In this document: one piece after another, positions 981-41,942 of the stretch
Layout of the letters: each line of letters begins with the position of its first letter
Numbering within the stretch: the first letter of the stretch is position 1
Assembly (NCBI RefSeq): GCF_017539065.1
Contig: NZ_JAFYHP010000009.1
Coordinates: 79,949 to 143,948 of the forward strand
Source: Methanobrevibacter sp.
GTDB taxonomy: Archaea; Methanobacteriota; Methanobacteria; Methanobacteriales; Methanobacteriaceae
Direction of reading: 5' to 3'
DNA: 64,000 bases
The notes under the pieces: model-generated
Database searches by the model: none
Told to the model about the DNA's origin: nothing
The model's input: only the letters and a program-made list of their open reading frames with translations
Position numbers and translations under genes: made by a program

Positions 981-1204
981 ATTGAATATAAGTTTCTCTA
1001 TTTTTGATTAATCTGCAAAAATTTTATCTAAGTTCACTGTTCCTCTGTTTCACCTTGAAGATAGTGAGGGCATTTTCACTGATGTCGACAAGTGCTGGCT
1101 AAAATTTAATCATTTTATCTTTTTCTTTTTTGCAGTCCAATTTGCTTTAAATGTGATACTTTTTAATATCTTAATAAATTAAAATATATATAAAGGTGTT
1201 CCAT

Positions 1205-3457
1205 ATGAGTGATAATAATTTGGGAAAATACATCGATGAATTTTTCAATAATCTGGAGTTATATGATGATAAATATAATAATCATCATTATAAAGGGCTT
1301 TTAAAGGCAGGCATTGACGTATTTTTAGAAAATGAAAATGCATACAATGCATATGAGGTATATCAAACCTTTTTCATGATTTATCAAATCACATCTGAGA
1401 ATAAATCTGAAAAGGTAACTGATACAAGCATCGTAAACGAACCTAACACTCTTCTTGATCTAGTCAAGATAATGAAAAAATATGAAGAAAATACCGGAGA
1501 TTTGATTGAAAAGCAAAGGGACCACTTTATCCACTCAGTCAATGTATTCCTGTTAGGTTTAGCAATATATTCCCAAAACAAGAATTATCGTGATGCATTT
1601 GAAGCTTATGTAATTCATAGTCCCTATGAAAAGTTTTATAGGATTGATGGAAAACTGTCCGATGAAGAGTTCCTATATCGATGGGGAGTGGCGGCACTGT
1701 TCCATGATGTAGGTTATCCCGTTGAAATCATCGGAAAGCAATTGAACAAATTCATGAACGACGGAGTGAAATCCATTTCAAGTTCTTATGCAGCAGATAC
1801 AGCAATCGACTTTAAGGATTTCAACGAATTTAACACCATTATAAAGATGGATCCTAACTTCGCCGATGAATTCACTAAAAACTATCCCAAAGCAAAATTC
1901 CTGAACCTGTTCAAGCCGACAGATATTATGGCCCAAAAAATTGCTACGGATTTTCCTAATGTTGATGTCAACAAGGTGGCAAAACACTTGGATGGTTTTG
2001 TGAATATAATGGGCGATAATGGCTTCATTGACCATGGATTTTTTTCATCAATTCTGGTTTTGAATTCATATGGATACTTGATACAAAAATATGCAAAAAA
2101 CCATGATTTCTTCTTTTATCCAATAGTGGATAGTGCCACTGCAATCCTGCTTCATAACTATTACAGAAATGTGCTGCAGAAGGAACCGTTTAAGTTATCC
2201 GGATTAAATCCAAAAGACAGTCCGCTGGCATATCTATTGATTTTATGTGATGAACTTCAGGAATGGAACAGGCAGCCATTCGGTATTATGGATAAAAAGA
2301 GAAGTCATGTCAACGATTTGAATTTGATAATTGATGATACCCGACTGGAAGTTGATTATATTGTAAAAAGCGGTTCAATGGGCCTTGGCTTTTCAGAAGA
2401 TAAGGAGGAATTGCTTAAAAATGTCTTATCTATTCCAAGCATATTCAAAAGGGGTTTGATGGTTTTCACTGATGTTCAACAGGACAATAACATTATGAGA
2501 GAAATTGTAAGGTCAGAGATTCAGGCTCCAAGTACTTTGCTTAGAAACGTTGAGAAACTGGCAATCCAAATCAATCAGCAATATATGGAAACTACAAAAG
2601 CCCAGTATGAGGATAAAAAGGCTAAAGGCGAGCTTGACGAAGACCTTAAGGAAAAATATGAAAACCTGAAGGAATTTGATGAGCTGTCCGCACAACTTAA
2701 AATCGCCAATATCAGGCAGGCAAGGTCAATTCCAAGGAAATTGAATGTAATCGGCTGTGAACTTGCCAATCTGTCTGACAAGCGTGAGGCCATTACTGAG
2801 TTTTCCGATGAAGAAATCCTTGATTTGGCCATTCTGGAACATGATGAATGGTGTGATGAAAAGATTGGTACAGGATGGACTTATGGCGAAGTTAGGGATG
2901 ATTCTAAATTGATACATAACTATCTTGTCCCATGGGATGAGCTGACCCCTGAAATTCAGCAATATGACATCGATCCGGTTAAGAACATACCTTCCCTTGT
3001 AGAATCAATTGGCTTGAAAATCGTTAAGACCAAGGTCAGAATGCTGACTATTGAAATGCATAAGTTCTATCAGTCAAACGAGGAAGGAACACAGGACTTT
3101 GAAGATTTGCCGGATTACATCAAATATTCCAATTACAAACAGGCTGATTTCCTAGTTAAAATATTGAATGAACTCGGATATGATGTGGTGGACAGTGAGA
3201 GTCCCGGCGAAGCTGTTGATTCATTTGACAATGATTCACTTGAATATTTAGCCAAACGGGAACATAATGCCTGGTATAAGCTTAAAGTTAACGTAGGTTG
3301 GAGATATGGTCCTGCTCGTGATGATGAGCAAAAACTCAATCCTAATCTAGTGGACTGGGACCATTTAGACATTTCAAAGAAAGACTCAAATATGAGAACA
3401 TTTAGGAACCTTCCGCAATTGTGTAAGAATGTCGATTTAAAAATTGTTAAAAACTGA
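1205..3457 (+). CDS. HD-superfamily phosphohydrolase-like domain fused to RyR (ryanodine-receptor type) repeats, paralog A
   Basis: Long ORF; ATG 1205 is preceded by AAGGTG. Ordered HD-type motifs: HFIHSVNV, FHDVGYP, IDHGFFS, LLHNYY, LCDELQEWNR. The C-terminal half has two canonical RyR repeats: EHDEWCDEKIGTGWTYGEVRDDSKLIHNYLVPWDELT (nt ~2820-3020) and EHNAWYKLKVNVGWRYGPARDDEQKLNPNLVDWDHL (nt ~3240-3450). Each is preceded by a helical half-repeat. Confidence 0.85.
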   Translation: MSDNNLGKYIDEFFNNLELYDDKYNNHHYKGLLKAGIDVFLENENAYNAYEVYQTFFMIYQITSENKSEKVTDTSIVNEPNTLLDLVKIMKKYEENTGDLIEKQRDHFIHSVNVFLLGLAIYSQNKNYRDAFEAYVIHSPYEKFYRIDGKLSDEEFLYRWGVAALFHDVGYPVEIIGKQLNKFMNDGVKSISSSYAADTAIDFKDFNEFNTIIKMDPNFADEFTKNYPKAKFLNLFKPTDIMAQKIATDFPNVDVNKVAKHLDGFVNIMGDNGFIDHGFFSSILVLNSYGYLIQKYAKNHDFFFYPIVDSATAILLHNYYRNVLQKEPFKLSGLNPKDSPLAYLLILCDELQEWNRQPFGIMDKKRSHVNDLNLIIDDTRLEVDYIVKSGSMGLGFSEDKEELLKNVLSIPSIFKRGLMVFTDVQQDNNIMREIVRSEIQAPSTLLRNVEKLAIQINQQYMETTKAQYEDKKAKGELDEDLKEKYENLKEFDELSAQLKIANIRQARSIPRKLNVIGCELANLSDKREAITEFSDEEILDLAILEHDEWCDEKIGTGWTYGEVRDDSKLIHNYLVPWDELTPEIQQYDIDPVKNIPSLVESIGLKIVKTKVRMLTIEMHKFYQSNEEGTQDFEDLPDYIKYSNYKQADFLVKILNELGYDVVDSESPGEAVDSFDNDSLEYLAKREHNAWYKLKVNVGWRYGPARDDEQKLNPNLVDWDHLDISKKDSNMRTFRNLPQLCKNVDLKIVKN

Positions 3458-3469
3458 TATGGTGAAAAA

Positions 3470-5833
3470 ATGACAGAAGAAACTATCAATCCGAATATAA
3501 GTCCTGAAAAATCAAATTTGCATAAATATATTGATAAGTTTTTTGATATGCTTACAATGTATGACGATTCCAAATCATTAAGTTCCGGAATTAATCATAA
3601 CTATAAAGGCCTATTGAAAGCTACAATCGATGTTTTTCTAGAATATGAATCTCCATATACTGCTTATGAGGTTTATGAGAACTTCTTAATGATTTATCAA
3701 ATTACTCCCGAAGACAAAAGCGAAGTCGATGAAAATAGCCCAAACAGCATCATAAGCGAACCGAACACCCTTCTTGATTTGGTTAAAATAATGCAGAAAT
3801 ATGAAGAAAATACTGGAGATTTAATCAACAGGCAAAGGGATCATTTCATACACTCAGTCAATGTGTTCATATTAGGTTTGGCAATTTATACTCAAAATGT
3901 AAATTATAGGGAGATATTTAGGGATTATATTCTGGACAATTCTTATTATAAGAAATATTATAAAACTCCCGATGGAGAATTTTCTCATGAGGAATTTTTA
4001 TACCGTTGGGGTGTTGCAGCACTTTTCCACGATATCGGTTATCCATTTGAAATAATCGGAAAGCAGATTGATAAGGTTATTGAAGATGGAGTTAAGTCTA
4101 TTTCTGTCAATTACGATGTCGGTGCTAACTTAGATTTCAGAGACTTCAATGAATTCAACGCTATTGTAAAGATAGCTCCTTATGACTATGCAGATAAGTT
4201 TAGGGAAAGGTATTATTCAACAAAAGTTCTGGATTTATTCAAACCTACTGACATCATGGCCCATAAAATTGCCATGGATTTTGATTTTGATGATGCCCAA
4301 TTTAAAGAGTTGATAAGACATTTAAGTGGTTTTGTCAAGTATATGAACAAGAAAGGCTTTATAGACCATGGATACTTCTCAGCAATTCTTGTCTTGAACT
4401 CATATGGTAAGCTGATTCAGAAGTATGTCGAAAAGGACAAGGATTTCTTCTTTTATCCGATTGTAGATAGTGCAACAGCAATTCTATTGCACAATTATTA
4501 TAATAAGACATTGCAGAGCGAGCTGTTCGGTCTTGGAAAATTGGATCCGAGTGATTCCCCTATTTCATATTTGCTGATTTTCTGTGATGAACTTCAGGAG
4601 TGGAATAGGCGCCCTTATGGTGTTTTGGATAAGCAGAAAAATCATGTTAATGACTTTGATGTTGAAATAGATGAGGAAAAAATCATTGTAAGGTACATTC
4701 TGAAGAATGGGTCCATGGGTCTTGGCTTTGAAGAGATGAAAGACGAATTCATCAACAAAGTTCTTGACGTTAGAAAAATATTCCCTGCTAAATTATCCAT
4801 TTTGCCTAAGGTCGAATTGGATAATGTCCAAAGGGATATTTTAATGTCAGATATTCAAACTCCAGATGTTCTTATGAGAAATATCGAGAAATTGGCCCGC
4901 GAGATTCATGAGCAGTACAGGCGAACTTCCGATGAGGAAGTGGTGGAATTTGATGACTTGAGTTCAGATTTGAAGATGTCCAATGTTCGCCAAGCGAAAT
5001 CCATTCCTAAAAAACTGGCGATGATAGGATGTGAAATTGCCCATAAGACCGAAGAGGAAATGGCTGATCCAACTGATTTTGACACTAAACTCAATCAAAT
5101 CATCAATGAGAATTATGGCGGCGATAAAGACGTCACTGAAGAGATTGTTGAAGAGTCAGGCAAGCTTATCAGGATTCTCAAATTCAATGAAAAGGATGTT
5201 GAAGACTTATCAATCTTTGAACATGACGAATGGTGTACTGAAAGATTTGGTAAAGGTTGGATTTGCGGTAAAAAAACAAACCGTGAAATGAAAATCAGTG
5301 AAGATTTGGTTGAATGGGAAAAGCTTTCTCCACAAACACGCAAGTATGATGAAGATGCCATCAAGAATATTCCTAAGCTTTTGGACAATATTGGTTTGAA
5401 AATCATCAGAAGCAGGCTCAGGGCACTTACCTATAAAATGAACCAGTTCTATGAATACGGTAAGCTTGACAGCAATTCCAGTGGTGAAAAGGAATTCAGG
5501 GCATTGAATACTCATATTCAGTTCTGTAATTTAAGACAGGCTACCCATTTGGTTAAGCTATTGAAGGAAAAGGGTTATGAGTTTGTTCCGATTGATGATA
5601 TTGGAGAACCTGTTGAAAGTTTTGATTATGATGAAATTGAATACTTTGCTAAAAGGGTGCATGAAGGATGGTATAAGCTTAAGCTCAACCTGAATGAGAT
5701 TTCCAGCAGGAATTTTGTAGAATGGGATAACCTTAACAGAAAAGTTAAGCAGAAAAACAGGGAAACCATCAGAAATCTTCCCGACATGTGCAAAGATGAA
5801 TATGTATCCTTGAAAATCGTCAGAAGCGATTAG
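3470..5833 (+). CDS. HD-superfamily phosphohydrolase-like domain fused to degenerate RyR-like repeats, paralog B
   Basis: Starts 12 nt after the paralog A stop, with a GGTGA SD. Collinear with A, sharing long identical blocks (EPNTLLDLVKIM, YEENTGDLI, RDHFIHSVNVF, FFFYPIVDSATAILLHNYY). HD motifs are retained (FHDIGYP, IDHGYFS, FCDELQEWNR). RyR repeat 1 is degenerate (GWICGKKTNREMK). Repeat 2 lacks the GW.YG..RDD core. Confidence 0.85.
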   Translation: MTEETINPNISPEKSNLHKYIDKFFDMLTMYDDSKSLSSGINHNYKGLLKATIDVFLEYESPYTAYEVYENFLMIYQITPEDKSEVDENSPNSIISEPNTLLDLVKIMQKYEENTGDLINRQRDHFIHSVNVFILGLAIYTQNVNYREIFRDYILDNSYYKKYYKTPDGEFSHEEFLYRWGVAALFHDIGYPFEIIGKQIDKVIEDGVKSISVNYDVGANLDFRDFNEFNAIVKIAPYDYADKFRERYYSTKVLDLFKPTDIMAHKIAMDFDFDDAQFKELIRHLSGFVKYMNKKGFIDHGYFSAILVLNSYGKLIQKYVEKDKDFFFYPIVDSATAILLHNYYNKTLQSELFGLGKLDPSDSPISYLLIFCDELQEWNRRPYGVLDKQKNHVNDFDVEIDEEKIIVRYILKNGSMGLGFEEMKDEFINKVLDVRKIFPAKLSILPKVELDNVQRDILMSDIQTPDVLMRNIEKLAREIHEQYRRTSDEEVVEFDDLSSDLKMSNVRQAKSIPKKLAMIGCEIAHKTEEEMADPTDFDTKLNQIINENYGGDKDVTEEIVEESGKLIRILKFNEKDVEDLSIFEHDEWCTERFGKGWICGKKTNREMKISEDLVEWEKLSPQTRKYDEDAIKNIPKLLDNIGLKIIRSRLRALTYKMNQFYEYGKLDSNSSGEKEFRALNTHIQFCNLRQATHLVKLLKEKGYEFVPIDDIGEPVESFDYDEIEYFAKRVHEGWYKLKLNLNEISSRNFVEWDNLNRKVKQKNRETIRNLPDMCKDEYVSLKIVRSD

Positions 5834-6036
5834 ATTTTAATTTCTCTGGCTTTAAAGTCGGAGAATTTTTACAATTTTTTGATGTGAATTCAGCAGATGA
5901 CAATATCGGTTCTATAACGGGAAATCAGAGAAATGGCTATTAACTTTTTTTGCAGTGTTTTTGAATAACATTTTGGAAAATATTCGGTCTCATTTCCATT
6001 TGGATTTTCGGCATGAAATTCAAAAAAGAGCTTGAG

Positions 6037-13888: not shown

Positions 13889-13988
13889 ACTAACAACCTC
13901 TATGTTAATGTTATTCTTCAGGATTTATATTAATTACTAAAATAAAAATGCTTTAATATTTTATTTAACAAATTTAAAATTGATTATT

Positions 13989-15275
13989 ATGGCGTATGAA
14001 ATTAAAAACAAAAAAAATATATCAACAATAGGTGTGCATGCTGGTCAAGAGGAAGTGGATGAAACAGGTTCAAGAGTAACACCGATTTATCAAACAACTT
14101 CCTATGTATTTGACACACCGGAGCAGGCTGCAAACAGGTTTGCTCTTAAGGAAGGGGGAAATATCTATACAAGACTCACCAACCCAACAACAGAAGCATT
14201 TGAAAAAAGAATGGCAGCTATTGAAGGCGGAACCGCTGCTTATGCAACCGCTTCTGGAATGTCCGCCATATTCTATACAATAATTAACCTGACACAAGTT
14301 GGAGACAATATAGTGTCTGCAGATAATCTTTATGGAGGAACATACGAGCTGTTTGAAAACACACTTGAGGAATTGGGCAGAACAGTCACATTTGTTGATT
14401 CCCAATCCCCTGATGAGTTTGAAGCAGCAATCAATGATAAAACCCGTGCAATTTATGTTGAATCAATCGGAAATCCGAAATTGGATATTCCTGATTTTGA
14501 TAAACTGTCTGAAATTGCACACTCACATGGAATTCCGTTGATTGCAGACAATACCGTTGGTATTGGTTCTGTTCGTCCGTTTGACCATGGTGCCGATATC
14601 ATTTCATCATCCGCAACAAAATATATTGGCGGTCACGGCACTACCCTTGGAGGAATAATCATTGAAAAAGGGGACTTCGACTGGATGAACGGTAAGTTTC
14701 CAACATTATCCGAGCCTGATGAAACATATAACGGTTTAGTATTTGGCGAAACCTTTAGGGGATCTGCTTTTACAACAAGAATCAGGGCAGTTGTTGGTAG
14801 GGATACCGGAGCAGTTCCTTCTCCATTCGGATCATTTTTACTCTTGCAAGGACTTGAGACTTTAGGCTTAAGAATCGAAAGGCATGCTTCAAATGCAATG
14901 GCAGTTGCACGCCATTTGGAAGCTCATCCTAAGGTGGCTTGGGTAACTTATTCCGGTTTAGAATCTTCTCCAAACCATGAAGTAGCTAAAAAATATGCTG
15001 AAAAGGGATATGGTGGAATAGTATCATTCGGTTTGAAAGCTGGTTATGACGGTGCTTTGAAATTCATTGAAAGTGTTGAATTGTTATCATTTTTAGCTAA
15101 CATTGGTGATGCAAAATCATTAGTTACTCATCCTGCATCAACCACTCACTCCCAATTGTCTCCGGAGCAACAGTTATCCACTGGTGTAACACCTGATTTA
15201 ATTAGATTCTCTGTTGGTATTGAGGATATTGAGGATATTTTGGCCGATGTGGACCAAGCTTTAGATAAGGTATAG
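13989..15275 (+). CDS. metY: O-acetylhomoserine sulfhydrylase (PLP-dependent, Cys/Met metabolism family)
   Basis: Full-length collinear family features: NPTTEAFEKRMAAIEGG, PLP-lysine motif SATKYIGGHG, C-terminal IRFSVGIEDIEDI. Confidence 0.85.
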   Translation: MAYEIKNKKNISTIGVHAGQEEVDETGSRVTPIYQTTSYVFDTPEQAANRFALKEGGNIYTRLTNPTTEAFEKRMAAIEGGTAAYATASGMSAIFYTIINLTQVGDNIVSADNLYGGTYELFENTLEELGRTVTFVDSQSPDEFEAAINDKTRAIYVESIGNPKLDIPDFDKLSEIAHSHGIPLIADNTVGIGSVRPFDHGADIISSSATKYIGGHGTTLGGIIIEKGDFDWMNGKFPTLSEPDETYNGLVFGETFRGSAFTTRIRAVVGRDTGAVPSPFGSFLLLQGLETLGLRIERHASNAMAVARHLEAHPKVAWVTYSGLESSPNHEVAKKYAEKGYGGIVSFGLKAGYDGALKFIESVELLSFLANIGDAKSLVTHPASTTHSQLSPEQQLSTGVTPDLIRFSVGIEDIEDILADVDQALDKV

Positions 15276-24216: not shown

Positions 24217-27200
24217 TTATTGTGTTAAAGTTTCATTAGTTTGCAGTGTCTTATTCAATAAAACCTCAAAAGTCCTATATTCGTCTTTTAAGGAACCGAT
24301 TGAAATTTTAAGCATATTTGCATCACTACTGAAATCAGTAGCATTGAATGAGAAAACGCCCACACCATTTACAACATTGAATTTTAGCTCAATGTCATTC
24401 AATGTGGCATACATTTCAAACACTGGCAATTTGGAAGCCACTTCATCATATTTATAGAAAGTAATTGAATAAGTTCCAGGGGTTATGACTTCTATTTCCT
24501 TAACAGACAGATAAACGGCATTTACTCTAGGGCACATGGTTCCATAACCGGTAGTGTTTGTTTCATAATCCCAGGTTATTCTTGCATTCTTACCAAACCA
24601 GTTTGCACCCAATTGCAATCTTTTGGAATCATTGTACAGGCCATATTGATAAATTCCTTCAGGATTTGCACTTAACTCACCCAAAATCATCATACTAGGG
24701 CCTTTTGCATTTCTATAAATTGCATTATCATTGACATTTGGTTCAACCGCATTTTCTGCCAAATCATAACCTGCATTAAATCTAATGCCTTCAAGTGCAT
24801 TATCAGATATCCAATTGCTTAAGATGACAATGCCTGTTGAGAAATTTGAATCAACAGAAATTCCCATATAATTATCTAAGATTTTATTTTGAGTTATTGA
24901 AACGTTAACTGCTGATTTATTCAAGAAGATTCCATAACCTAATGGTCCTTCAGGAATGTCCATCACATATAATCCGATGTTTTTGGTAATCAAATTATTG
25001 GTTATATTGGTGTTTTTTACACCTGAATCATAATTGATTCCATAATTGCTTAAGGATAACGTATTGTTGTTTATTTCCAAATCATCAGTATTTTGAACAA
25101 ATATTGCATTTCCAAATGATTCAACAACGTTTTTAATAACTTTGATATTTTCTGCATTGGATATTTCAATACCGTTTCCAGGAATGATTAAGTTACCTGA
25201 ATTGTATTCACTGATTTTGGATTGATCAAGAACATTTAAAATGGTGTTATTCTCAAGTGTTACGTTGTTTGCATTTTTAATAATAATTCCTGAACCCTCA
25301 TGGGCATTAATTGCTAAATTAGAAATGTTCAAATTAGATGCGGCAATTGTTAAAACCGGACTTTTGGATTTGCCATTTAATGTAGTGTTTGGCATAAAAG
25401 TAATGTTCAATGCTTTATCTATGGTCAAGCTGACATCATTATAATTATTTCCTAAAAATTCAACAGAGTTTTTAGCTTCATTAAATCTGGCTTGGATTTC
25501 ATCTCCAGGAATGCCGGCATCAATAAATGTAACCCCCGTTTTATTTAAAATTGTTATGACATTATTGGCCGCGGATGCTTTGTATTGATTTGTTTGAGCA
25601 TACTTGCTTATAATATCATAAGATCCAACGCTTAATGAGGAAACATCAACTTTAATTTGACCGTTCTTATCAGATTTTTGTGAATAGGACTGGTTATTTA
25701 AAGTATATGAAATTAACTGGTCAGCTAATGCTTTTCCGGAAGAATCTTCTAAAGTAATAGTGTATGATTCAGCAGAATTTTTAGAAAATGTCCTATCATA
25801 GCTAGTTAGTGTGGTTGGGGTTCTTGCAACTTTAATGGTTCCTGTTGCTTTAGCGTTTTTATAGATAGCTGATCCGGCATAGGTTACAGTTGCCTTATAT
25901 GTATTTTCAGTTGCAAATTTAGTTTGAATGCTAATTTGACCTTTGCTGTTAGTTGTTTTAGTGTAGGTAATACAGTTCAAATTAATTTTTAGAGTCTGTC
26001 CTGAGATAGCTTTACCGTCATTTGTTTTTAAAGTTACTGTATAATCCTTTGCAGTATTTGGAATAGTGTTCATATTTGGAGCAGTTATTTTAGTAACTGT
26101 TTTTTGAACAGTTATTTTTCCTGTTGCAGAAGATTTCTTATATGATTTGGTTTTCTTATAGTTTGCTTTGACTTTATATGATTTGAGCTTGGAAAATTTA
26201 ACTTTGATTGTAACCTGACCTTTACTGTTGGTCTTTTTAGTATATTTTTTACCATTTACTTTGACTGTAACTTTCTGTTTTTTAAGAACTTTACTGTTTT
26301 CATCTTTTAAGGTAATGCTATATTTTGTTTTGGTTTTAGGAGTAGTTGTAATCTTAGGAGCAACCAATTTGGTTTTTAATACTTTTTTAACATAAATCTT
26401 AGTAGTTTTCTTAGCTGCAGTATATTTATTGGTACCTTTATAATTCATTACAACTTTATAGGTTCCTTTTTTAAGTTTAAGTTTTAATTTAGCAATGCCT
26501 TTTGCATTTGTTGTTTTAGTATAAGTTTTTTTATTAACTTTAATAGTTACTTTTTGACCAGACAATGGTTTATTGGATGAATCTTTTAAAGTTAATTGAT
26601 AATAATCGGCTTTTTTAATAAACATTGCATAATTTGAAGCCACAATATTAGTTGATACTTTTTGAACTGTTATTTTTGCCTGTGCATTTGATGCAGAATA
26701 GTCAACATCGTCTCCAGCATAGTTTACTTTAACAGTATATGTGCCCACGTTCTGTCTGATTTTAATTGTAGCTTGGCCTTTAGCATCGGTAACCGCTTTG
26801 ACAGTTTTTGTACCAATGGTGAATGTGACTGGTTCATTCACGACAGGATTGTTATAAATGTCAGTCACTGTTGCAATGAAATTAACATTGGAATTTGGAT
26901 AAGTGTTTAAATTTGAAACTGCAATTTTGGCTGGGGTTATATTGCCGGGAATGTAATTATCATCAACGTTGAATTTTTTAACATTCTTGTTTTGATCACC
27001 GGTAATATATTCTGAAGTACCTGGTAAAACCACTGTTACAACGTTTCCACTTTCCTTAAAGTCTTCTGGATAGAATCTGGCTGTTGCTGTTCCATCAACC
27101 ATCATTACAGTCTTATAGACATCACCTTCCTGAGGGGCAACATAATTATTGTCTTTATTTAAATAAAATATCACTGGAACGGAACTCAATCCTTTTGCAA

Positions 27201-28503
27201 CTTCTCCATTCGGGTTGATGAGTGAAATTGTATAGATTCCCTTTTTTGATTGTTTTATTTCAGTTAATTGGAGTCTGTAATCTCCACTATACCAACGTGC
27301 ACCATATTCAAAATATAATATAGGACAATTGACATTTTCATTTATTACGAAAGTATAACCTAAGAATACACCGCCTTTGCCATCACGATTAATAGGTCTT
27401 ACGTTATTTCCAACCATATAATTGTTATTTAATACTTCTAATTTTTCACCGCCCTGCTTCCATATTCCTTGAGCGTTTTCACTATTGAAAACTTCTCCTC
27501 CATCAGTAAATGAGTTTTTATAAAAGAAATTGCCGATAATGTTGATTTGTTGGATTTGACAGTCCACATACACTCCATACATTGAATTTAATGCAATATA
27601 ATTGCTTAAAATATTGATGTTATTGGATGAAGTCAATTCAATTCCCTTTTCATTATTGGTAATGTTGTTGAAATTGACTGTTGGATTGTTTGAACTGCCT
27701 GCAAACAATACTCCCACTTCATTATTTAAAATATTATTGGAATTAATGATTGTTTTAGTAGAATCAACATCATTAATACCGTATTTGGAATCTTCAATAA
27801 TTGAATCCTTTACTGTTACTCCATTTGAATTCTTAATTTTAATCCCATTTACAGTTTCGGAAATGCTTACATTCTGTATTACTGTATTTCTTGCATTTTC
27901 CAGTCTTATGGCATCAGCAATATTATTGTTGGAAAAGGTACAGTTTCTTATAATGATATTCGAAGCGCCATCTATTAAGATATGGTAATCATCAGTACGT
28001 AACGGTGTGCTGCTGTCGAATACGAAATTAAATCCTTCAATAATTGTTCCACTGGCTCCTGAAGTGAGGTAAAATTCTCCTCTATGATTAGAAAATGCAG
28101 TGCTTGAGCAGGCACTTAAATTTGTTCCGACTTCACTTTTTATTGTTACCTTCTTATCAATTTGCAAATGGCAATGTTCATATGATTCCCCTCTAATAAT
28201 GATGGTATCTCCGTCGTTTGCAGATTGAATTGCAGTTCTTATAGTGTGATCATTCATCTCCACATGAGTCTCACCATAATTATCAACTACAATAGTTTTA
28301 GGCTCAGATAAAATAGCATCATTAGATGCGCCTAATTGATTATCATTTAAATTATATTCTTCATTAGCATTTAATTCACCGATTGGCGAATCTACAGTTA
28401 AATTATTATCATCAAAATTGTCTTCACTTGCTGCAACTGAACTGATGCATAAAAACGTAACCAATAATAAAGACAACATTATATAAATGTTTTTGTTTTT
28501 CAT
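24217..28503 (-). CDS. Adhesin-like protein (ALP2), 1428 aa: two parallel beta-helix regions flanking five Ig-like modules
   Basis: Signal peptide MKNKNIYIMLSLLLVTFLCISSVAA. NosD/PbH1-like repeats (N..I.NN..GI) at both ends. Five ~92-aa modules at nt ~25550-26930 with the core V.VNGK.YTKKTNSKGQ. Confidence 0.9.
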   Translation of the reverse strand: MKNKNIYIMLSLLLVTFLCISSVAASEDNFDDNNLTVDSPIGELNANEEYNLNDNQLGASNDAILSEPKTIVVDNYGETHVEMNDHTIRTAIQSANDGDTIIIRGESYEHCHLQIDKKVTIKSEVGTNLSACSSTAFSNHRGEFYLTSGASGTIIEGFNFVFDSSTPLRTDDYHILIDGASNIIIRNCTFSNNNIADAIRLENARNTVIQNVSISETVNGIKIKNSNGVTVKDSIIEDSKYGINDVDSTKTIINSNNILNNEVGVLFAGSSNNPTVNFNNITNNEKGIELTSSNNINILSNYIALNSMYGVYVDCQIQQINIIGNFFYKNSFTDGGEVFNSENAQGIWKQGGEKLEVLNNNYMVGNNVRPINRDGKGGVFLGYTFVINENVNCPILYFEYGARWYSGDYRLQLTEIKQSKKGIYTISLINPNGEVAKGLSSVPVIFYLNKDNNYVAPQEGDVYKTVMMVDGTATARFYPEDFKESGNVVTVVLPGTSEYITGDQNKNVKKFNVDDNYIPGNITPAKIAVSNLNTYPNSNVNFIATVTDIYNNPVVNEPVTFTIGTKTVKAVTDAKGQATIKIRQNVGTYTVKVNYAGDDVDYSASNAQAKITVQKVSTNIVASNYAMFIKKADYYQLTLKDSSNKPLSGQKVTIKVNKKTYTKTTNAKGIAKLKLKLKKGTYKVVMNYKGTNKYTAAKKTTKIYVKKVLKTKLVAPKITTTPKTKTKYSITLKDENSKVLKKQKVTVKVNGKKYTKKTNSKGQVTIKVKFSKLKSYKVKANYKKTKSYKKSSATGKITVQKTVTKITAPNMNTIPNTAKDYTVTLKTNDGKAISGQTLKINLNCITYTKTTNSKGQISIQTKFATENTYKATVTYAGSAIYKNAKATGTIKVARTPTTLTSYDRTFSKNSAESYTITLEDSSGKALADQLISYTLNNQSYSQKSDKNGQIKVDVSSLSVGSYDIISKYAQTNQYKASAANNVITILNKTGVTFIDAGIPGDEIQARFNEAKNSVEFLGNNYNDVSLTIDKALNITFMPNTTLNGKSKSPVLTIAASNLNISNLAINAHEGSGIIIKNANNVTLENNTILNVLDQSKISEYNSGNLIIPGNGIEISNAENIKVIKNVVESFGNAIFVQNTDDLEINNNTLSLSNYGINYDSGVKNTNITNNLITKNIGLYVMDIPEGPLGYGIFLNKSAVNVSITQNKILDNYMGISVDSNFSTGIVILSNWISDNALEGIRFNAGYDLAENAVEPNVNDNAIYRNAKGPSMMILGELSANPEGIYQYGLYNDSKRLQLGANWFGKNARITWDYETNTTGYGTMCPRVNAVYLSVKEIEVITPGTYSITFYKYDEVASKLPVFEMYATLNDIELKFNVVNGVGVFSFNATDFSSDANMLKISIGSLKDEYRTFEVLLNKTLQTNETLTQ

Positions 28504-28690: not shown

Positions 28691-30478
28691 ATAACTATCA
28701 AAAATAAAATAATATTCATTTTTGTGTTGATATTCATTTTCCTAACTTTATCCTGTATAAATGCAGAATCCTTTGATGAAAGTTCAAATAATACTTTAAT
28801 AGCTAATTCCGAAGCAAATGATATTGAAGATTTATCTACAGCAAATGGTGATTTTTCAAGTTTAGAAAATGCAATAACCAATGCATCCCAAACAAAAACT
28901 CTGAAATTGACCAAGGATTATACATATAACTCTGCATCTGATGGAAAATATTCGAATGGAATCAATATCACAATAGATGATTTGGTTATAGATGGTCAAG
29001 GACATAGCATAGATGCATGTAAAAAAGCAAGGATATTCAATATTAAATCAAACAATGTTGTTTTGACAAATCTGACAATGATAAACGGATTTTCAAATTC
29101 ACATGGAGGTTCAATTTACTGGACAGGATATAACGGAACAGTAGAAAATTCCCTTTTTAAATACAGTAATTCCTCAAGAGATGGGGGAGCAGTCACTTTC
29201 AAATATTATGGGACAGTTACTAACTCCAATTTTGAAAATAATTATGCAGGAATTGGAGGAGCACTAAATTTTGGAGATGATGGCAGAATAACCAATTCTA
29301 AATTTTACAAGAACTTCTCGAAATATGTTGCAGGTGCAGTAAATTATGAAGGCAATGGAAACATAGAAAACTCCACATTCATTGAAAACGAAGGAGGAGA
29401 TGGGGGAGCTGTTCTTTTTACTTCTGGAATAATCAATAACTCAAGTTTCATAAAAAATAATGCAATCGGATACGGTGGCGCAGTCTCAATACAAAGAAAT
29501 GCACTCATAAACAATTCAAGATTTATAAAAAACACAGGAAAATTTTCCGGGGCACTGGACTTTAAAGAAACAGGCAATGTTGCAAATTCCATTTTTAGAG
29601 ATAATCATGCAAAAACTTATTCCGGAGCCATATCTTTCACTGATGACGGATATGTTGTTAATTCAACATTTATAAACAACTCCGCATTAACCTATGCTGG
29701 ATCCATTCTTTTTGAAAAGGAGGGATTTGTTGAAAAATCAATATTCCTAATCAATTCTGCTGAAACGGAGGCTGGAGCAATATACTTCTGCACTATAGGC
29801 ATTATGCAAAATTCTACATTCACACAAAACCGTGCAGAAGATGGGGGAGCAATATTTGCATATTGCAACAATATCAGCATCTTCAACTGTAAATTTAATC
29901 ATAATTTCGCCTCAAATGAAGGTGATTCAATCTATATTAAAGCAGATAATATCATAATCAATAACACAACATTCAATAGCGAGCATTCTTACAATGATAC
30001 AATATATATCAATTCAGATAATTTAACAATGAGTAACATTGATTTTAATAATACTCCTCCAGAAGTACTTAATATAACTCCTTTAAGTGATTATGATATT
30101 GATACCAACATGACGCAGGGTCCCGTCAATACTAGTAGCAACACTCATATAACAGAGAAAGAAACTACAAATACTAATTCAAAAACTGTTAAAAATAAAA
30201 AAGCTACTTACATTAAAGCAAAATCAAAGAAATTTAAGGCAGCTAGTAAAAAGAAGAGATTTACTGTAAAATTGCTCAGTAATAAAAAAGCCCTTAAAAA
30301 CAAGAAAATCACATTAAAGTTTAGGGGAAAGAAATATAGTTCAAAAACAAATAAAAAAGGGAAATGTGTTTTTAAACTAAAAATTAGAAAAAAAGGCAAG
30401 TTTGGAGTTGTAATTAAATTTTCTGGAGATAAAAACTATAAATCAACAAAAAAAATAATTAAAATAATCATTAAATGA
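28691..30478 (+). CDS. Adhesin-like protein (ALP3): GGA-repeat beta-helix plus one C-terminal Lys-rich Ig-like module
   Basis: The track start GTG 28724 lies inside the hydrophobic core. The upstream open frame gives (I)TIKNKIIFIFVLIFIFLTLSCINA after GGGGG 28685-28689. The start is ATA 28691 or, with better spacing, ATC 28697. Repeats: GGAVTF, GGALNF, AGAVNY, GGAVLF, GGAVSI. C-terminal module: KFRGKKYSSKTNKKGKCVF. Confidence 0.8.
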   Translation: MTIKNKIIFIFVLIFIFLTLSCINAESFDESSNNTLIANSEANDIEDLSTANGDFSSLENAITNASQTKTLKLTKDYTYNSASDGKYSNGINITIDDLVIDGQGHSIDACKKARIFNIKSNNVVLTNLTMINGFSNSHGGSIYWTGYNGTVENSLFKYSNSSRDGGAVTFKYYGTVTNSNFENNYAGIGGALNFGDDGRITNSKFYKNFSKYVAGAVNYEGNGNIENSTFIENEGGDGGAVLFTSGIINNSSFIKNNAIGYGGAVSIQRNALINNSRFIKNTGKFSGALDFKETGNVANSIFRDNHAKTYSGAISFTDDGYVVNSTFINNSALTYAGSILFEKEGFVEKSIFLINSAETEAGAIYFCTIGIMQNSTFTQNRAEDGGAIFAYCNNISIFNCKFNHNFASNEGDSIYIKADNIIINNTTFNSEHSYNDTIYINSDNLTMSNIDFNNTPPEVLNITPLSDYDIDTNMTQGPVNTSSNTHITEKETTNTNSKTVKNKKATYIKAKSKKFKAASKKKRFTVKLLSNKKALKNKKITLKFRGKKYSSKTNKKGKCVFKLKIRKKGKFGVVIKFSGDKNYKSTKKIIKIIIK

Positions 30479-30485
30479 TTAAAAA

Positions 30486-33400
30486 TTATTTTTTAATTTT
30501 TATTGTTCTTTTAACTTGAGATTTTAGATATTTAATGATTATTTTATGTTTTCCCACTTTTAAATTTTTTAAAGTAACCTTAGCAATACCTTTCCTGTTG
30601 GTTTTGGAAACATAGGTCTTACCTTTGATTTTAAAGGTAATCTTTTTATTTGAAATCGGTTTTCCGTTACTTTTCTTTAAATAAGCATTGTATTTAATCT
30701 TTTTAGATTTTTTCTTGGTAATGCTCTTTGCTTTTAAAACCTTTTTAATTTTTATGGTATTCTTTACGGATTTACCGTCGCAGGATGAGGTAATTTTATA
30801 TTTTCCAGGAGTTAAACTGAATGTTTTAGAAGCATAACCGTTTTTATTGGTGGTAACCTTATATGTTTTTCCTGAAATTTTCATTACCACTTGTATATTG
30901 CTCATGGCTGCACCGTAACTGTCCATAATGCGAACTTTGAAGGTTGTTTTCCCGCAGTAGTCCATATTGATATTTTTATTCAAAGTGATTTTCAATGGGT
31001 TTTTATCAACGTTAAGTGAAATAATTTGATCATTGATTTTTGCGGTTAATTTGGTTACCTTAGGAATTGAAACCTTTTTAGATAAAACTCCCTTTGAAAA
31101 TGATATGACTTTATTGTCTAATGATAAGCTTACATCAAAATCAGCTAGTAGTTCCGGTGAGTCAATTTTTGACACTGAATTCTTTTTGTTTAAAGTTTTT
31201 GTCATATCAATAATAATATTTGCAGATTTATATTGTATTAATGGATTTGAATTGGAAAAGCCCATCATAATCCATGTGAAATCGTCTGTAATATTGATAT
31301 TGATTAATTTTTCAAAGCTTGGTGAATTTGTTCCCCACCAATTGTTTTTTAATGAGATCTCATCCCATGTTTGATTAAATATTGCAAATCCATTGGAGTC
31401 ATGGTTATTGTAAATTATGGAATGGGTTATATTAGCTCCTCTTCTTAGAATAATTGCTCCACCATCGCCTTCGGCGATATTGTTTTCAAATTTAGATCCC
31501 ACTATTGTCATATTTCCATTATTGTCAATAGCTCCACCATTTTTTGTTGCTTTGTTGTTGATGAACTCAGATTTGAAGATAGTTAAAAATCCTCCATTAT
31601 CTATCGCACCAGCGCCATAAGCTTGATTGTCATCAAATAAGGAATATAAAATAGTTAAATTTCCAGAATTATCAATGGCGGCTCCATGGCTTCTTGCTAT
31701 GTTGGAAATGAACTGAGATTTATTGATTAAAATGTTTCCATTTTTATTAAAAATTGAGGTGCCCTCATCTGATCCTTCGTTTAATTTAAATATTGAATTT
31801 GAAATGTTGGCATTTCCAAGGGCAATGTATAATACTCCATATGAATGTGAAATGATATTATTTTCAAATTTGGAATTATCGATTATTAAATTGTCGCGGC
31901 TTTGAATAACTGCACCTACTTCTGCCTTATTATTTTTAAATTGAGAACTGTTGATTGTAGTCACATTTTTGAAATTATAAATGACTCCAGCATTAGATGC
32001 TTCATTTGAATCAAAATTACAATCATTGATATTTAAATTACCTTTGTTATATGCAAATCCTCCATGGTTTGCTTTATTGTATTTTGCATTTGATTTGTTT
32101 ATTTGAACAAAAGCAGTATTATAGATGGCTCCTCCATCAGTTGCAAGATTGTAATTAATATTCGAATCGGCAATGATTAAATTAGCGGTATTATAGATTG
32201 CTCCTCCACTATAATTGGCGGAATTATAATTAATATTAGTATTGTCTATGGTTAAATTAGCAGTATTATAGATAGCCCCTCCATTATTTGCATTTCCATA
32301 GGTTATAGTGCATTTCTTTAAGGTTAAGTTTGCAGCATTATATATTGCTCCGCCAAGATTAGCTTTATTATTTTCTATCTTAAAACTATTTAAAGTTAAA
32401 TCTCCCTTATTATAAATTGCTCCGCCTTCTTCAGCGGAATTATTGTTTAAAATACATTCTTTTAAAGTCATAGAAGACTTTTCAATATAAATTCCACCGC
32501 CCTTTTCTGCGCTGTTGTTTATCAGGTTAGCATTTTTTATATCTAAAGAATAACGGGAACATGAAATTCCTCCACCATTTATGGTAGCGGTGTTGTTTAT
32601 TAAATCACAATGAGTTAGTGTTAAATATGATAAAAAGACATCGATTCCACCGCCTCTTTCTGCAGAATTATTATAAATTAAAGAATTTTCAATGATTAAA
32701 TGGCCATGTGAATCTGATATTATTCCTCCGCCTTTATTTGCATAATTATTTTCAAAATAACAATTGTCGACATTCATTGTATATTCGGAGATATATGCGC
32801 CACCACCAGCAAAAGCGGTGTTATTTATGAAAATGCTGTCATACATTTCACAGGTTCCCCAGCTTTTAACGCCTCCTCCCAAATCGGAGGCGATATTAGA
32901 ATAAAATTTGGAATTTCTAACAATCAAATATCCTCTATTATTATAAATGCCCGCACCACGTAGAGCCGAATTATTTATAAATGTGGAATTGATTAAATTG
33001 AAATTGCTAAATCTATTGTAAATTGCCCCTCCTTCATCGCAATGGTTATTTTCAAATAAAGAGTTAATAATAATTATTGTATTTGCGCTATAACTATCTA
33101 TAGCCGCACCGGTACTTGCAACATTATCTTTAAAAAGAGAATTATATACTGTTAATTCTGATTTAGTTTCTCCAGAAATTGCTCCGCAATAAGCAGAATT
33201 ATTGATGAATTTGGAGTTATTAACTGTTAGTTTTCCTTCATTATAAATAGCGGCTCCTCTTCCATCAGTGAAACCGTTCACAAAAGTTAAGTCGATTATA
33301 TTTACTTTGGCATTTTTTGAAATTACAAAAATGCCTGATTTTCCTTTTGCATCCAGCACGGTATCTGAAGAATTAGATCCTTTAATAGTAATGTCTTTAT

Positions 33401-41649: not shown

Positions 41650-41942
41650 TTTTTCCTTTTTTTAATTTTTAAATTTCGAGTTTTTAAATTAAAGCTCCGA
41701 AACTTTTCATTTAACTAATTTCTTTTTTTTGTTAGGTTCTATCAGTAATTGTTCAGCTTTTTCTAGTCTATTTTGTTATTCCTTAATTGTTTTGATTTTT
41801 GAAGAGTTCATAATGGCGGAGGGGGAATTATTACATGTTCATTATATGAACATTAGGGAAATATGGGGGAATTTATGTTTTACGCAACTTCATCAAAACA
41901 ATTTTTTCATATTTCTCCATTTAAATGATGGGAGGTGAATTT

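What the first reader, a model, noticed from the sequence alone, without database searches (positions are those of the whole stretch)
1205..5833. Tandem paralogous HD-phosphohydrolase + RyR-repeat giants: candidate nucleotide-sensing effector pair
Seen in sequence. Two ORFs of about 750 and 787 codons lie head-to-tail, 12 nt apart, with an SD in the gap. They are collinear along their whole length. Each has an N-terminal domain with the ordered metal-binding motif set of the HD superfamily (H..H, HD, DHG, H, D). Each also has a C-terminal half built from alternating helical half-repeats and RyR-type repeats. Paralog A carries two textbook RyR cores: GWTYGEVRDD...LVPWDEL and GWRYGPARDD...LVDWDHL. 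In paralog B both cores are eroded: GWICGKKTNREMK in the first, and the GW.YG..RDD core deleted in the second. B also has a longer acidic linker.
Established knowledge. The RyR domain (Pfam PF02026) defines eukaryotic ryanodine-receptor Ca-release channels. It occurs only sporadically in prokaryotes and phages, where it has no assigned function. HD domains are frequent nucleotide or nucleic-acid hydrolysing effectors in signalling and conflict systems.
Inference. This may be a two-subunit sensor/effector in which A keeps the ligand-binding repeats and B is a degenerate partner. I know of no described system with this HD + 2xRyR architecture as a duplicated pair in a methanogen. The pair is bracketed by two unusually long non-coding stretches of ~200 nt (981-1204 and 5834-6036), which fits an autonomous cassette.
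Basis: partly seen in the sequence, partly recalled or inferred. Interest (0 to 1): 0.8.

Follow-up and report, generated by a model that had tools for sequence, protein, structure and literature searches.

The report
RyR-sensor, HD-like enzyme gene pair
Two neighbouring Methanobrevibacter genes each fuse an uncharacterised HD-like enzyme domain to ryanodine-receptor-type nucleotide-binding repeats, and their relatives elsewhere sit beside or are fused to TIR immune-signalling genes, so the family is probably an undescribed receptor/effector arm of TIR (Thoeris-like) antiviral signalling, although this copy has no TIR partner nearby.

Summary
ORF A (1205-3457, 750 aa) and ORF B (3470-5833, 787 aa) are collinear paralogs with 50% identity. 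They lie 12 nt apart, with a GGTGA Shine-Dalgarno in the gap.

Each C-terminal half carries four RyR-type repeats, alternating degenerate and canonical, which form two Repeat12-like units. Pfam RyR scores 1.3e-28 for A and 1.8e-14 for B.

The N-terminal ~430 aa matches no Pfam, NCBIfam, PADLOC, PDB or Foldseek entry. It keeps an invariant H…HD…H…H…D set and shows weak but consistent HD similarity. I call it HD-like, not a proven HD.

New evidence links the N-domain family to TIR:
- Standalone forms sit next to ThsB-type TIR genes in defence islands.
- 22 of 31 bacterial RyR-fused homologs adjoin a TIR or DUF4062-STAND gene.
- Some Methanobrevibacter paralogs are TIR–HD-like–RyR triple fusions.

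Two 2026 preprints show that phage RyR domains bind or cleave TIR-made cADPR isomers. A's first canonical repeat keeps all five ligand-contact residues.

Best reading: a Thoeris-like receptor/effector.

In this window I found no TIR in 64 kb. The neighbours are metabolic genes and the ~200-nt flanks are ordinary. The heterodimer idea is untested.

The parts
1193..1198 (+). Shine-Dalgarno AAGGTG for ORF A, 6 nt before ATG 1205, in an AT-rich TATA-like stretch
   Evidence: Read from the sequence. The alternative GTG start at 1196 lies inside this motif.
1205..3457 (+). ORF A, 750 aa: HD-like N-domain plus two RyR Repeat12-like units. This is the A-type paralog.
   Evidence: It is 100% identical to P0001, named 'RyR domain-containing protein [Methanobrevibacter sp.]'.
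1205..2494 (+). A N-domain (aa 1-430): helical bundle, HD-like core, small C-terminal beta subdomain
   Evidence: AF2 with a deep MSA gives pLDDT 92.7 and pTM 0.93. There is no Pfam/NCBIfam/PADLOC family. 1132 cluster representatives match at E<=1e-3.
1448..2302 (+). A HD-like core (aa 82-366) with H107, H110, H167-D168, D276-H277, H317, D349
   Evidence: The residues are invariant. Pfam HD is sub-threshold in 23/71 members, aligned in register with H…HD. hhalign to canonical HD domains gives 84%.
2534..3037 (+). A RyR unit 1 (aa 444-611): degenerate repeat R1' plus canonical repeat R2, with the full ligand pocket H546/W549/R564/H571/D588
   Evidence: Foldseek matches the human RyR3 Repeat12 + ADP structure at E 1e-6.
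3038..3454 (+). A RyR unit 2 (aa 612-750): degenerate R3' plus canonical R4, with pocket H687/W690/R705 but N712 and N729
3458..3469 (+). 12-nt A-B spacer with Shine-Dalgarno GGTGA (3461-3465). This suggests co-transcription and independent translation initiation of B.
3470..5833 (+). ORF B, 787 aa: B-type paralog with the same architecture
   Evidence: B-clade orthologs follow A-type genes in at least 13 Methanobrevibacter MAGs.
3470..4819 (+). B N-domain (aa 1-450) with an intact motif set: H125, H128, H187-D188, D299-H300, H341, D373
4865..5419 (+). B RyR unit 1 (aa 466-650). It includes a longer acidic linker. Pocket is H585/W588/T603/S610/D627.
5420..5830 (+). B RyR unit 2 (aa 651-787). 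It has a 10-residue deletion of the GW.YG..RDD core; H731 and W734 are kept.
   Evidence: The deletion is conserved in 11 B-clade orthologs.
5866..5880 (+). Two oligo-T runs (T5, T6) downstream of B: a likely archaeal termination signal (inference)

Best explanation
A and B are two diverged copies of an uncharacterised family. The protein joins a ~430-aa HD-like domain, probably a metal-dependent phosphohydrolase, to RyR Repeat12-type modules that bind an adenine-nucleotide or ADP-ribose-derived ligand.

Across the family this protein is the receptor/effector arm of TIR-based, Thoeris-like immune signalling. The proposed steps are:
1. A TIR protein senses infection and converts NAD+ into an ADPR-type signal. 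The TIR can be a ThsB-like standalone, TIR-LRR, DUF4062-STAND-WD40, or a TIR fused to the same polypeptide.
2. The RyR pocket binds that signal.
3. Binding switches on the HD-like domain, which hydrolyses an essential nucleotide or nucleic acid and stops the infected cell or the virus.

In this window the pair is a TIR-less copy in a native metabolic neighbourhood. A keeps one complete ligand pocket. B keeps the catalytic-type residues but has altered pockets. The two are probably co-transcribed. They presumably respond to a TIR encoded elsewhere in the genome, or to a related cellular adenine nucleotide.

Shown: the domain architecture, residue conservation and genomic associations. Inferred: ligand identity, enzymatic activity, activation logic and any A-B complex.
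For: RyR identity:
- Pfam 99.5 and 54.2 bits; PDB hits; Foldseek to RyR3 Repeat12 with ADP or AMP-PCP at E~1e-6.

Ligand logic:
- RyDEP residues H75/W78/H100/D117 and RyR-Tad residues H129/W132/K147/H154/D171 contact 3'cADPR/ADPR. They map to A H546/W549/R564/H571/D588. H, W and D are kept in essentially every family member.

TIR linkage:
- TIR+N-domain+RyR fusions: P0139, P0142, P0148, L003 gene 2, L040, L033.
- A TIR gene lies within 1.5 kb in 13/31 bacterial loci, and a DUF4062-STAND-WD40 gene in 9 more.
- Standalone N-domain genes are immediately followed by 125-145-aa ThsB_TIR genes (P0164, P0210, P0166, P0283). Others are flanked by TIR_2 genes (P0145, P0342). These sit next to RM, McrBC, a gene with a Shedu-type SduA_C domain, and integrases.
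- The catalytic Glu of the associated TIR domains is 97% conserved.
- SLOG/SLATT-like neighbours occur.
- TIR-fused paralogs sit at a separate locus in the same MAG as an A-type locus (L008 and L040).

HD-like effector:
- Invariant H…HD…H…H…D; Pfam HD sub-threshold in 23/71 members against at most 3/71 for any noise family; hhalign 84%, E 7e-6.

Cellular, not viral:
- No relatives in IMG/VR.
Against: - No TIR, SLOG or other defence gene in the 64-kb window (tblastn; six-frame HMM; neighbour Pfam).
- 36 of 44 Methanobrevibacter loci lack an adjacent TIR or DUF4062 gene.
- The locus sits at a conserved chromosomal position between AKR and TPR/ABC genes with native GC.
- HD membership is unproven: Pfam is below cut-off and there is no PDB or BFVD structural neighbour despite a pLDDT-92.7 model.
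- Standalone N-domain proteins pair with ThsB without any RyR. So the RyR module is not required for the TIR link, and the N-domain itself may bind the signal.
- Triple fusions that hold producer, sensor and effector on one chain are awkward for a diffusible-signal model.
- There is no experimental evidence for any member.
Confidence: 0.5

Rival explanations
1. Signal-processing accessory rather than killing effector. The protein removes or converts TIR products. The RyR pocket captures, or like phage RyDEP glycosidically opens, cADPR isomers. The HD-like domain then hydrolyses the ADPR pyrophosphate or phosphoester. This would either reset signalling, as ring nucleases do, or make NAD+ depletion irreversible and deny phage NAD+-reconstitution pathways their ADPR substrate.
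For: - The RyDEP catalytic dyad (H75/D117) corresponds to H546/D588, which are conserved family-wide.
- Several loci already contain a separate classical effector candidate next to the family gene: SLOG-SLATT/DUF4231 in L052, L060, L066, L022.
- In TIR-STAND-WD40 loci the TIR may itself be the NADase effector.
- Phage NARP1 uses linear ADPR.
Against: - Most RyDEP homologs with the same residues are sponges, not enzymes.
- Minimal two-gene cassettes [N-domain][ThsB] have no other effector candidate.
- No activity data exist.
Confidence: 0.15
2. In Methanobrevibacter the pair is a domesticated housekeeping regulator or enzyme: an HD-like phosphohydrolase tuned by a cellular adenine nucleotide (ATP/ADP/NAD/ADPR) bound at the RyR modules. 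It has no role in antiviral defence in this genome.
For: - No TIR in the window, and metabolic neighbours.
- Conserved chromosomal position across many MAGs and native composition.
- Eukaryotic Repeat12 binds ATP/ADP.
- In relatives the pair is embedded in an FHA / Ser-Thr kinase-Hsp70 / metallophosphatase array, which suggests cellular signalling.
Against: - Copy number varies from 1 to 4. TIR-fused paralogs and SLATT neighbours occur in the same genus.
- ~40%-identical homologs are scattered over unrelated bacterial phyla beside TIR genes.
- The cargo at this chromosomal site differs between genomes.
Confidence: 0.2
3. One reading: an obligate A-B heterodimer in which A supplies the ligand-binding repeats and B is a degenerate structural or regulatory partner.
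For: - A-then-B tandem order with short gaps is conserved in at least 13 MAGs.
- The B-clade R4 core deletion is conserved.
- Single RyR repeats dimerise back-to-back in phage proteins.
Against: - Each protein already contains two intramolecular Repeat12-like pseudo-dimers, so dimerisation is not needed to form pockets.
- B-type genes occur alone on other contigs (L024-L026, L032, L034-L037), and A-type genes occur alone (L011, L012, L020-L022, L029).
- B keeps all catalytic-type residues and most R2 pocket residues.
- No complex prediction could be run.
Confidence: 0.15

Closest known systems
Thoeris anti-phage systems (types I-XI; ThsB TIR plus a signal-activated effector)
   Same: Relatives form two-gene cassettes with ThsB-type TIR genes in defence islands. 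The partner combines a ligand-binding module with a putative enzymatic domain. The associated TIRs keep the catalytic Glu.
   Different: Neither an HD-like domain nor a RyR domain appears among the described effectors (SIR2-SLOG, Macro-TM, caspase-like, DUF2270, DUF6650, SLATT, CMP hydrolase, TIR-SLOG, ion channel, HIT hydrolase) in the text and held tables of 10.64898/2025.12.03.692087. PADLOC has no model for it. The window copy has no TIR.
Phage RyR-domain anti-Thoeris proteins (RyDEP glycosidase; RyR-Tad sponge)
   Same: Same Pfam domain (PF02026) and the same ligand-contact residues (H, W, K/R, H, D). These are the only RyR-domain proteins outside eukaryotes with a demonstrated ligand.
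   Different: Those are small viral single-repeat homodimers that block immunity. Here the domain is cellular, with no IMG/VR relatives. It is arranged as intramolecular tandem repeats and fused to a large HD-like domain, and it sits on the host side next to TIR genes.
Repeat12 / Repeat34 domains of eukaryotic ryanodine receptors
   Same: Tandem RyR repeats form a pseudo-two-fold module that binds adenine nucleotides. These are the best sequence and structure matches.
   Different: The proteins here are not part of an ion channel. One repeat of each pair is degenerate, with the GW.YG..RDD loop replaced by a helical insert.
HD-superfamily metal-dependent phosphohydrolases (PF01966; di-metal H…HD…H…H…D subgroup such as HD-GYP, PgpH, Cas3 HD)
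   Same: Same order and type of conserved metal-ligand residues. Weak profile similarity over the H and HD motifs.
   Different: Below the Pfam threshold. No detectable structural neighbour. The domain is ~430 aa, with an N-terminal helical bundle, a long insert between HD and the third motif, and a C-terminal beta subdomain.
CARF/SAVED-effector fusions of type III CRISPR and CBASS
   Same: Conceptually the same design: a nucleotide-signal sensor domain fused to a hydrolytic effector, sometimes in several paralogs per locus.
   Different: No homology, and the signal producer is a TIR rather than Cas10 or a CD-NTase. Methanobacterium standalone N-domain genes do lie beside a SMODS/Cap17-like operon.

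Membership tests
RyR domain (Pfam PF02026) | Match to the family HMM above the gathering score | tested here: met
   A scores 99.5 bits (3 stretches) and B 54.2 bits, against a cut-off of 27.4.
RyR domain (Pfam PF02026) | Repeat12-type fold built from paired repeats | tested here: met
   Foldseek of the A model (C-terminal half pLDDT ~75-89) hits RyR3 Repeat12 structures at E 1e-6, prob 1.0, TMt 0.45-0.51. Internal repeat hhalign gives 95-99.9%.
RyR domain (Pfam PF02026) | Ligand-contact residues defined in RyDEP and RyR-Tad (offsets 0 H, 3 W, 18 K/R, 25 H, 42 D) | tested here: met
   A-R2 has H546/W549/R564/H571/D588, all five. A-R4 has H/W/R/N/N. B-R2 has H/W/T/S/D. B-R4 has H and W only. 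Actual ligand binding was not testable.
HD superfamily (PF01966) | Match to the family HMM above the gathering score | tested here: not met
   A N-domain scores E 0.2, 12.4 bits vs cut-off 22. The best of 71 relatives scores E 0.0012. However, 23/71 give a sub-threshold hit in register with H…HD.
HD superfamily (PF01966) | Ordered, conserved H … HD … (H … H) … D metal-ligand motifs | tested here: met
   H110, H167-D168, H277, H317 and D349 are kept in almost all of 94 family proteins and in distant standalone forms.
HD superfamily (PF01966) | Profile-profile or structural similarity to bona fide HD domains | tested here: inconclusive
   hhalign against two canonical HD domains gives prob 84%, E 7.4e-6 over the first two motifs. 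A reciprocal jackhmmer gives weak hits at E 0.004. Foldseek of a pLDDT-92.7 model finds no PDB or BFVD hit at E<=1e-3; the only hint is E. coli PPX at prob 0.47. The profile against PDB sequences finds nothing.
HD superfamily (PF01966) | Divalent-metal-dependent phosphohydrolase or nuclease activity | not testable with these tools
   Needs biochemistry.
Thoeris-type TIR signalling system | A TIR (ThsB-like) gene in the same operon or locus | tested here: not met
   In the window there is none in 64 kb. In the wider family the feature is met: 22/31 bacterial loci, 8/44 Methanobrevibacter loci, and 6 of 8 standalone homologs examined.
Thoeris-type TIR signalling system | Location in defence islands or mobile contexts | tested here: not met
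   Window neighbours are metabolic or transport genes. Homologs sit next to RM/McrBC, a gene with a Shedu-type SduA_C domain, integrases, WYL, and SMODS.
Thoeris-type TIR signalling system | Effector activated by a TIR-made NAD+ derivative; anti-phage phenotype | not testable with these tools
   Inferred only, from RyR-domain ligand data in phage proteins.

The most novel reading that the evidence does not exclude
The RyR domain is an ancestral cellular receptor for TIR-made ADP-ribose signals. HD-like-RyR proteins, including TIR-HD-like-RyR single-chain versions, would then constitute a new Thoeris-like immune system. It would be widespread in anaerobic bacteria and expanded into paralog arrays in gut methanogens.

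Phage RyR sponges and glycosidases would be captured host sensors. The Repeat12/34 domains of animal ryanodine receptors would descend from this immune sensor, giving an evolutionary rationale for the long-debated cADPR-RyR connection. The conserved A/B paralog pair would act as a heteromeric receptor with one competent and one modified pocket.
Probability: 0.3. Interest if true: 0.85.

Novelty: new variant of a known kind. Interest (0 to 1): 0.68.

Why it matters
If correct, this adds a new sensor domain (RyR) and a new effector domain (an unannotated HD-like fold with more than 1000 sequence clusters) to TIR immune signalling. It would extend such systems into methanogenic archaea of the gut and rumen.

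It would also explain where phage anti-Thoeris RyR proteins came from. It places the nucleotide-binding repeats of animal ryanodine receptors in an immune-signalling lineage, which bears on whether cADPR acts directly on RyR channels.

The family offers compact two-gene cassettes ([N-domain][ThsB]) that can be tested directly in E. coli or B. subtilis.

Tried and rejected
- NCBIfam, PADLOC and PHROGs scans of A and B gave nothing beyond RyR-type matches in PHROGs.
- Foldseek of the first full-length model (pLDDT 68) returned only RyR hits, because the N-domain was poorly modelled. I re-modelled the N-domain with a 71-sequence MSA (pLDDT 92.7), but Foldseek against PDB and BFVD still found no neighbour.
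- The whole-length profile A3 against PDB was swamped by RyR hits. The trimmed core profile A4 found nothing.
- I tried to collect canonical HD homologs using the C-terminal HD of P0221 and got no hits, which cost one search. I substituted a 2-sequence HD profile for hhalign.
- The Pfam HD hits in P0221 and P0244 first looked like support for HD identity. They lie in a separate C-terminal domain, not in the region homologous to A.
- I searched the window for TIR with tblastn and a custom TIR HMM and found none.
- The viral-contig scan found no relatives. Rfam found no RNA family in the window.
- The "unusually long flanks" claim is rejected on the window's own gap distribution.
- I looked up scaffold IDs of TIR-adjacent homologs in the Thoeris-survey tables and found none, but two of those tables are truncated in the held copy.
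Full report
**1. What is in the sequence**

The region holds two long ORFs on the + strand. A runs from ATG 1205 to the stop at 3455-3457 (750 aa). B runs from ATG 3470 to the stop at 5831-5833 (787 aa). The A-B gap is 12 nt and contains GGTGA. Two oligo-T runs follow B.

A and B align end to end with 50% identity (404/803, E = 0). B carries a ~36-residue acidic insertion in the linker before its first canonical RyR repeat and a 10-residue deletion in its last repeat. A is 100% identical to a database protein named 'RyR domain-containing protein [Methanobrevibacter sp.]'. GC content is 0.366 for A and 0.356 for B, close to the window mean of 0.333. Gaps of at least 200 nt make up 40% of all intergenic gaps in the window, so the flanking spacers are not unusual. 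Rfam finds no RNA family in the window.

**2. The C-terminal half**

Pfam RyR (PF02026) matches A at 1.3e-28 in three stretches and B at 1.8e-14 in one. PDB sequence search returns only RyR Repeat12/34 domains, the Bacteroides RyR-like protein, and a recent 'RyR domain-containing protein' entry.

Profile comparison of the four segments gives R1'~R2 95.5%, R1'~R3' 98.3% and R2~R4 99.9%. Each protein therefore has four RyR-type repeats in the order degenerate, canonical, degenerate, canonical. That amounts to two Repeat12-like pseudo-dimers. Foldseek of the A model matches human RyR3 Repeat12 bound to ADP, AMP-PCP or dantrolene at E~1e-6.

**3. What RyR domains do, as of 2026**

Two preprints overturn the statement that these domains have no assigned function in prokaryotes and phages.
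[quoted passage not shown] Six of the eight other phage homologs tested bind these Thoeris signals, and the two that were characterised in detail do so with nanomolar affinity. Contact residues are H75, W78, H100 and D117 (PMC13232231).
- RyR-Tad from a Pectobacterium phage sequesters 3'cADPR, 2'cADPR and cADPR. Its binding residues are H129/W132, K147/H154 and K170/D171 (10.64898/2026.06.04.730250).

Both residue sets fall at offsets 0, 3, 18, 25 and 42 of the repeat. Mapped onto the window proteins:

| Repeat | Offset 0 | Offset 3 | Offset 18 | Offset 25 | Offset 42 |
|---|---|---|---|---|---|
| A-R2 | H546 | W549 | R564 | H571 | D588 |
| A-R4 | H | W | R | N | N |
| B-R2 | H585 | W588 | T603 | S610 | D627 |
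| B-R4 | H731 | W734 | deleted | S | N |

Across 94 family proteins, H, W and D of R2 are essentially universal. Offset 18 is usually K or R. Offset 25 is S or T in most members, including the TIR-adjacent bacterial ones. So B-R2 differs from the family majority only at offset 18. The R4 deletion is shared by all B-clade orthologs, which makes it an old, maintained feature.

**4. The N-terminal half**

No Pfam, NCBIfam or PADLOC family covers residues 1-430. A phmmer scan of 1.8 billion cluster representatives finds 1132 relatives at E<=1e-3. Many are ~400-aa standalone proteins labelled 'hypothetical'.

With a 71-sequence alignment, AlphaFold gives a confident model (pLDDT 92.7, pTM 0.93). 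It is mainly helical with a small C-terminal beta subdomain. Foldseek finds nothing significant in PDB or BFVD. The only suggestive match is E. coli exopolyphosphatase at probability 0.47. A trimmed core profile finds no PDB sequence.

Evidence for an HD relationship is consistent but weak:
- The set H110 … H167-D168 … H277 … H317 … D349 is invariant across archaeal, bacterial, fused and standalone members. From my own knowledge, this is the di-metal HD pattern.
- Pfam HD gives sub-threshold hits in 23 of 71 members (best E 0.0012; A itself E 0.2). These align residues 109-173 to HD positions 3-40. No other family is hit in more than 3 members.
- hhalign against two bona fide HD domains gives 84% probability. 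It aligns RDHxxHS with HRHDVFEHS, and AALFHDVGYP with AALFHDIGKP.
- A jackhmmer search started from those HD domains picks family members as its next hits, at E~0.004.

I therefore call the domain HD-like and regard superfamily membership as probable but unproven.

**5. Distribution and paralogy**

One genome-collection scan gave 75 loci. In Methanobrevibacter, an A-type gene followed by a B-type gene recurs in at least 13 MAGs. One locus (L003) has four tandem paralogs. A-type and B-type genes also occur singly.

Bacterial homologs come from Anaerolineae, Syntrophomonadaceae, Peptococcaceae, other Clostridia and Actinomycetota. They are ~580-600 aa and carry the N-domain plus a single R1'-R2 unit. 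No relatives occur in the viral contig collection.

**6. The key new finding: linkage to TIR**

(a) Fusions. P0139, P0142, P0148, L003 gene 2 (1070 aa), L040 (1090 aa) and L033 (779 aa) are TIR_2/ThsB_TIR + N-domain + RyR. They are 46% identical to A in the N-domain.

(b) Neighbours of RyR-fused genes. A custom TIR HMM finds a TIR gene fused or within 1.5 kb in 13/31 bacterial loci and 7/44 Methanobrevibacter loci. Nine further bacterial loci have an adjacent DUF4062-NACHT/AAA-WD40 protein. From memory, DUF4062 is regarded as TIR-like; I did not test this here. Examples include TIR-LRR (L074, overlapping stop/start) and small TIR proteins 3-6 nt downstream (L056, L068).

(c) Standalone N-domain genes. 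P0164, P0210 and P0166 are each immediately followed or preceded by a 125-145-aa ThsB_TIR gene. P0166 lies next to an MspI-type RM system and McrBC, and P0164 lies between integrases. P0283 lies between a TIR_2 gene and a ThsB_TIR gene, near a gene with a Shedu-type SduA_C domain. P0145 sits in an operon with three TIR genes. P0342 faces a 522-aa TIR_2 gene. Two Methanobacterium homologs instead adjoin a SMODS/Cap17-like operon and an Mrr nuclease.

(d) Other neighbours. These include SLOG-like plus SLATT/DUF4231 two-TM proteins (L022 passes the Pfam cut-off; the others are sub-threshold) and TrkA_N-RyR fusions.

(e) The associated TIR domains keep the catalytic-type Glu in 97% of cases. PADLOC sees them only as generic TIRs.

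**7. The window copy**

Pfam assigns the neighbours as follows:
- upstream: an aldo/keto reductase with a ferredoxin domain
- downstream: an ARMT1-like phosphatase on the opposite strand, a TPR protein, an SDR and two ABC exporters
- further along: GNAT, DUF169 and a Cys/Met PLP enzyme

No TIR is detectable in 64 kb. Related MAGs have the family genes at the same chromosomal site, between AKR and TPR/ABC, but with different cargo. Most carry SIS, FHA, a kinase-Hsp70 fusion and a metallophosphatase upstream, plus two unknown genes and MatE downstream. Others have a SLATT-like gene directly upstream of a single A-type gene. None of these extra genes is present in the window. At least one MAG carries an A-type locus (L008) and a TIR-fused locus (L040) on different contigs. 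A TIR partner elsewhere in this genome is therefore plausible but unknown.

**8. Interpretation**

The most economical reading is that the family is the receptor/effector component of Thoeris-like TIR signalling. RyR would be the signal-binding module and the HD-like domain the output. I put this at 0.5 for the window pair. I judge it more likely at the level of the family than for this particular copy.

Caveats:
- Standalone N-domains pair with ThsB without RyR, so the N-domain may itself recognise the signal.
- Some loci already hold SLOG/SLATT effectors, which leaves room for a signal-processing or ADPR-destroying role (0.15).
- The TIR-less, syntenic, metabolically embedded Methanobrevibacter copies may have been domesticated for sensing cellular nucleotides (0.2).
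- The specific A-B heterodimer model could not be tested. It is weakened by the intramolecular repeat pairs and by A-type and B-type genes that occur alone (0.15).

**9. Novelty**

A December 2025 survey of TIR systems lists 29 putative Thoeris types and verified effectors for types V-XI: DUF2270, DUF6650, SLATT, CMP hydrolase, TIR-SLOG, ion channel and HIT hydrolase. Neither RyR/PF02026 nor an HD-type effector appears in its text or in the held parts of its tables. Figure 1C and the truncated parts of the tables could not be checked. Searches combining RyR with TIR, Thoeris, SLOG or PF02026 return only the two phage preprints. I rate this as a new variant of a known kind of system. The window holds an incomplete, TIR-less instance.

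Noticed in passing
L001-L031 (e.g. L003:3049-9174; L002:5359-9697): Most Methanobrevibacter relatives carry a conserved array directly upstream of the A/B pair: SIS protein, FHA protein, a ~1170-aa Ser/Thr kinase fused to an Hsp70-like ATPase, and a calcineurin-like metallophosphatase. The whole array is absent from this window. It may be a separate signalling or conflict module, or a regulator of the pair.
   Followed up: partly
L045:2484-4247, L047:12723-14540, L061:6937-8775 (also L046, L054, L059): Anaerolineae loci have a second gene next to the HD-like-RyR gene that fuses a TrkA_N (NAD-binding Rossmann) domain to a C-terminal RyR domain. This is another RyR fusion with an NAD-related domain.
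   Followed up: partly
L003:15500-17767 and L033:10433-12667: The paralog immediately after the TIR-fused gene has lost the first HD-type residues (F-R-Y-D in L003, V-H-F-D in L033). It keeps a fully canonical RyR pocket (H-W-R-H-D). It may be a binding-only, regulatory or sponge-like family member.
   Followed up: no
L003:9188-10000 (= N-terminus of P0026, P0020, P0050): Some A-type orthologs (1020-1021 aa) carry a 271-aa N-terminal extension with no Pfam match, and it is not TIR.
   Followed up: partly
P0221 and P0244 (1271 and 1366 aa): Distant relatives combine the HD-like N-domain, a ~700-aa helical region, and a separate canonical Pfam HD domain at the C-terminus. One protein thus holds two HD-type modules.
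   Followed up: partly
L083:5001-9018, L084 and L085 (Methanobacterium): Standalone N-domain genes lie convergent to a Cap17-like / unknown / SMODS (CD-NTase-like) operon and near an Mrr nuclease. The family may also be linked to CBASS-like signalling in methanogens.
   Followed up: no
window 24217-28503 (-), 30486-33554 (-), 41925-46022 (+), 28724-30478 (+): Several very large ORFs (1022-1428 aa) show repetitive similarity to a 2883-aa protein found near family genes in other Methanobrevibacter MAGs (L039:14166-22817). They are probably adhesin-like surface proteins.
   Followed up: no
L003:20328-21907, L014:12353-13929, L023:12892-14465, L031:14946-16522: A duplicated pair of ~260-aa genes with no Pfam match follows the A/B pair in many relatives, ahead of a MatE transporter. 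These genes are absent from the window.
   Followed up: no
window 13980-15275: The Cys/Met PLP-enzyme gene lies ~8 kb downstream of the pair here. In relatives (L002, L012, L022, L029) it sits upstream, right after the AKR gene. This indicates a local rearrangement around the pair in this genome.
   Followed up: partly
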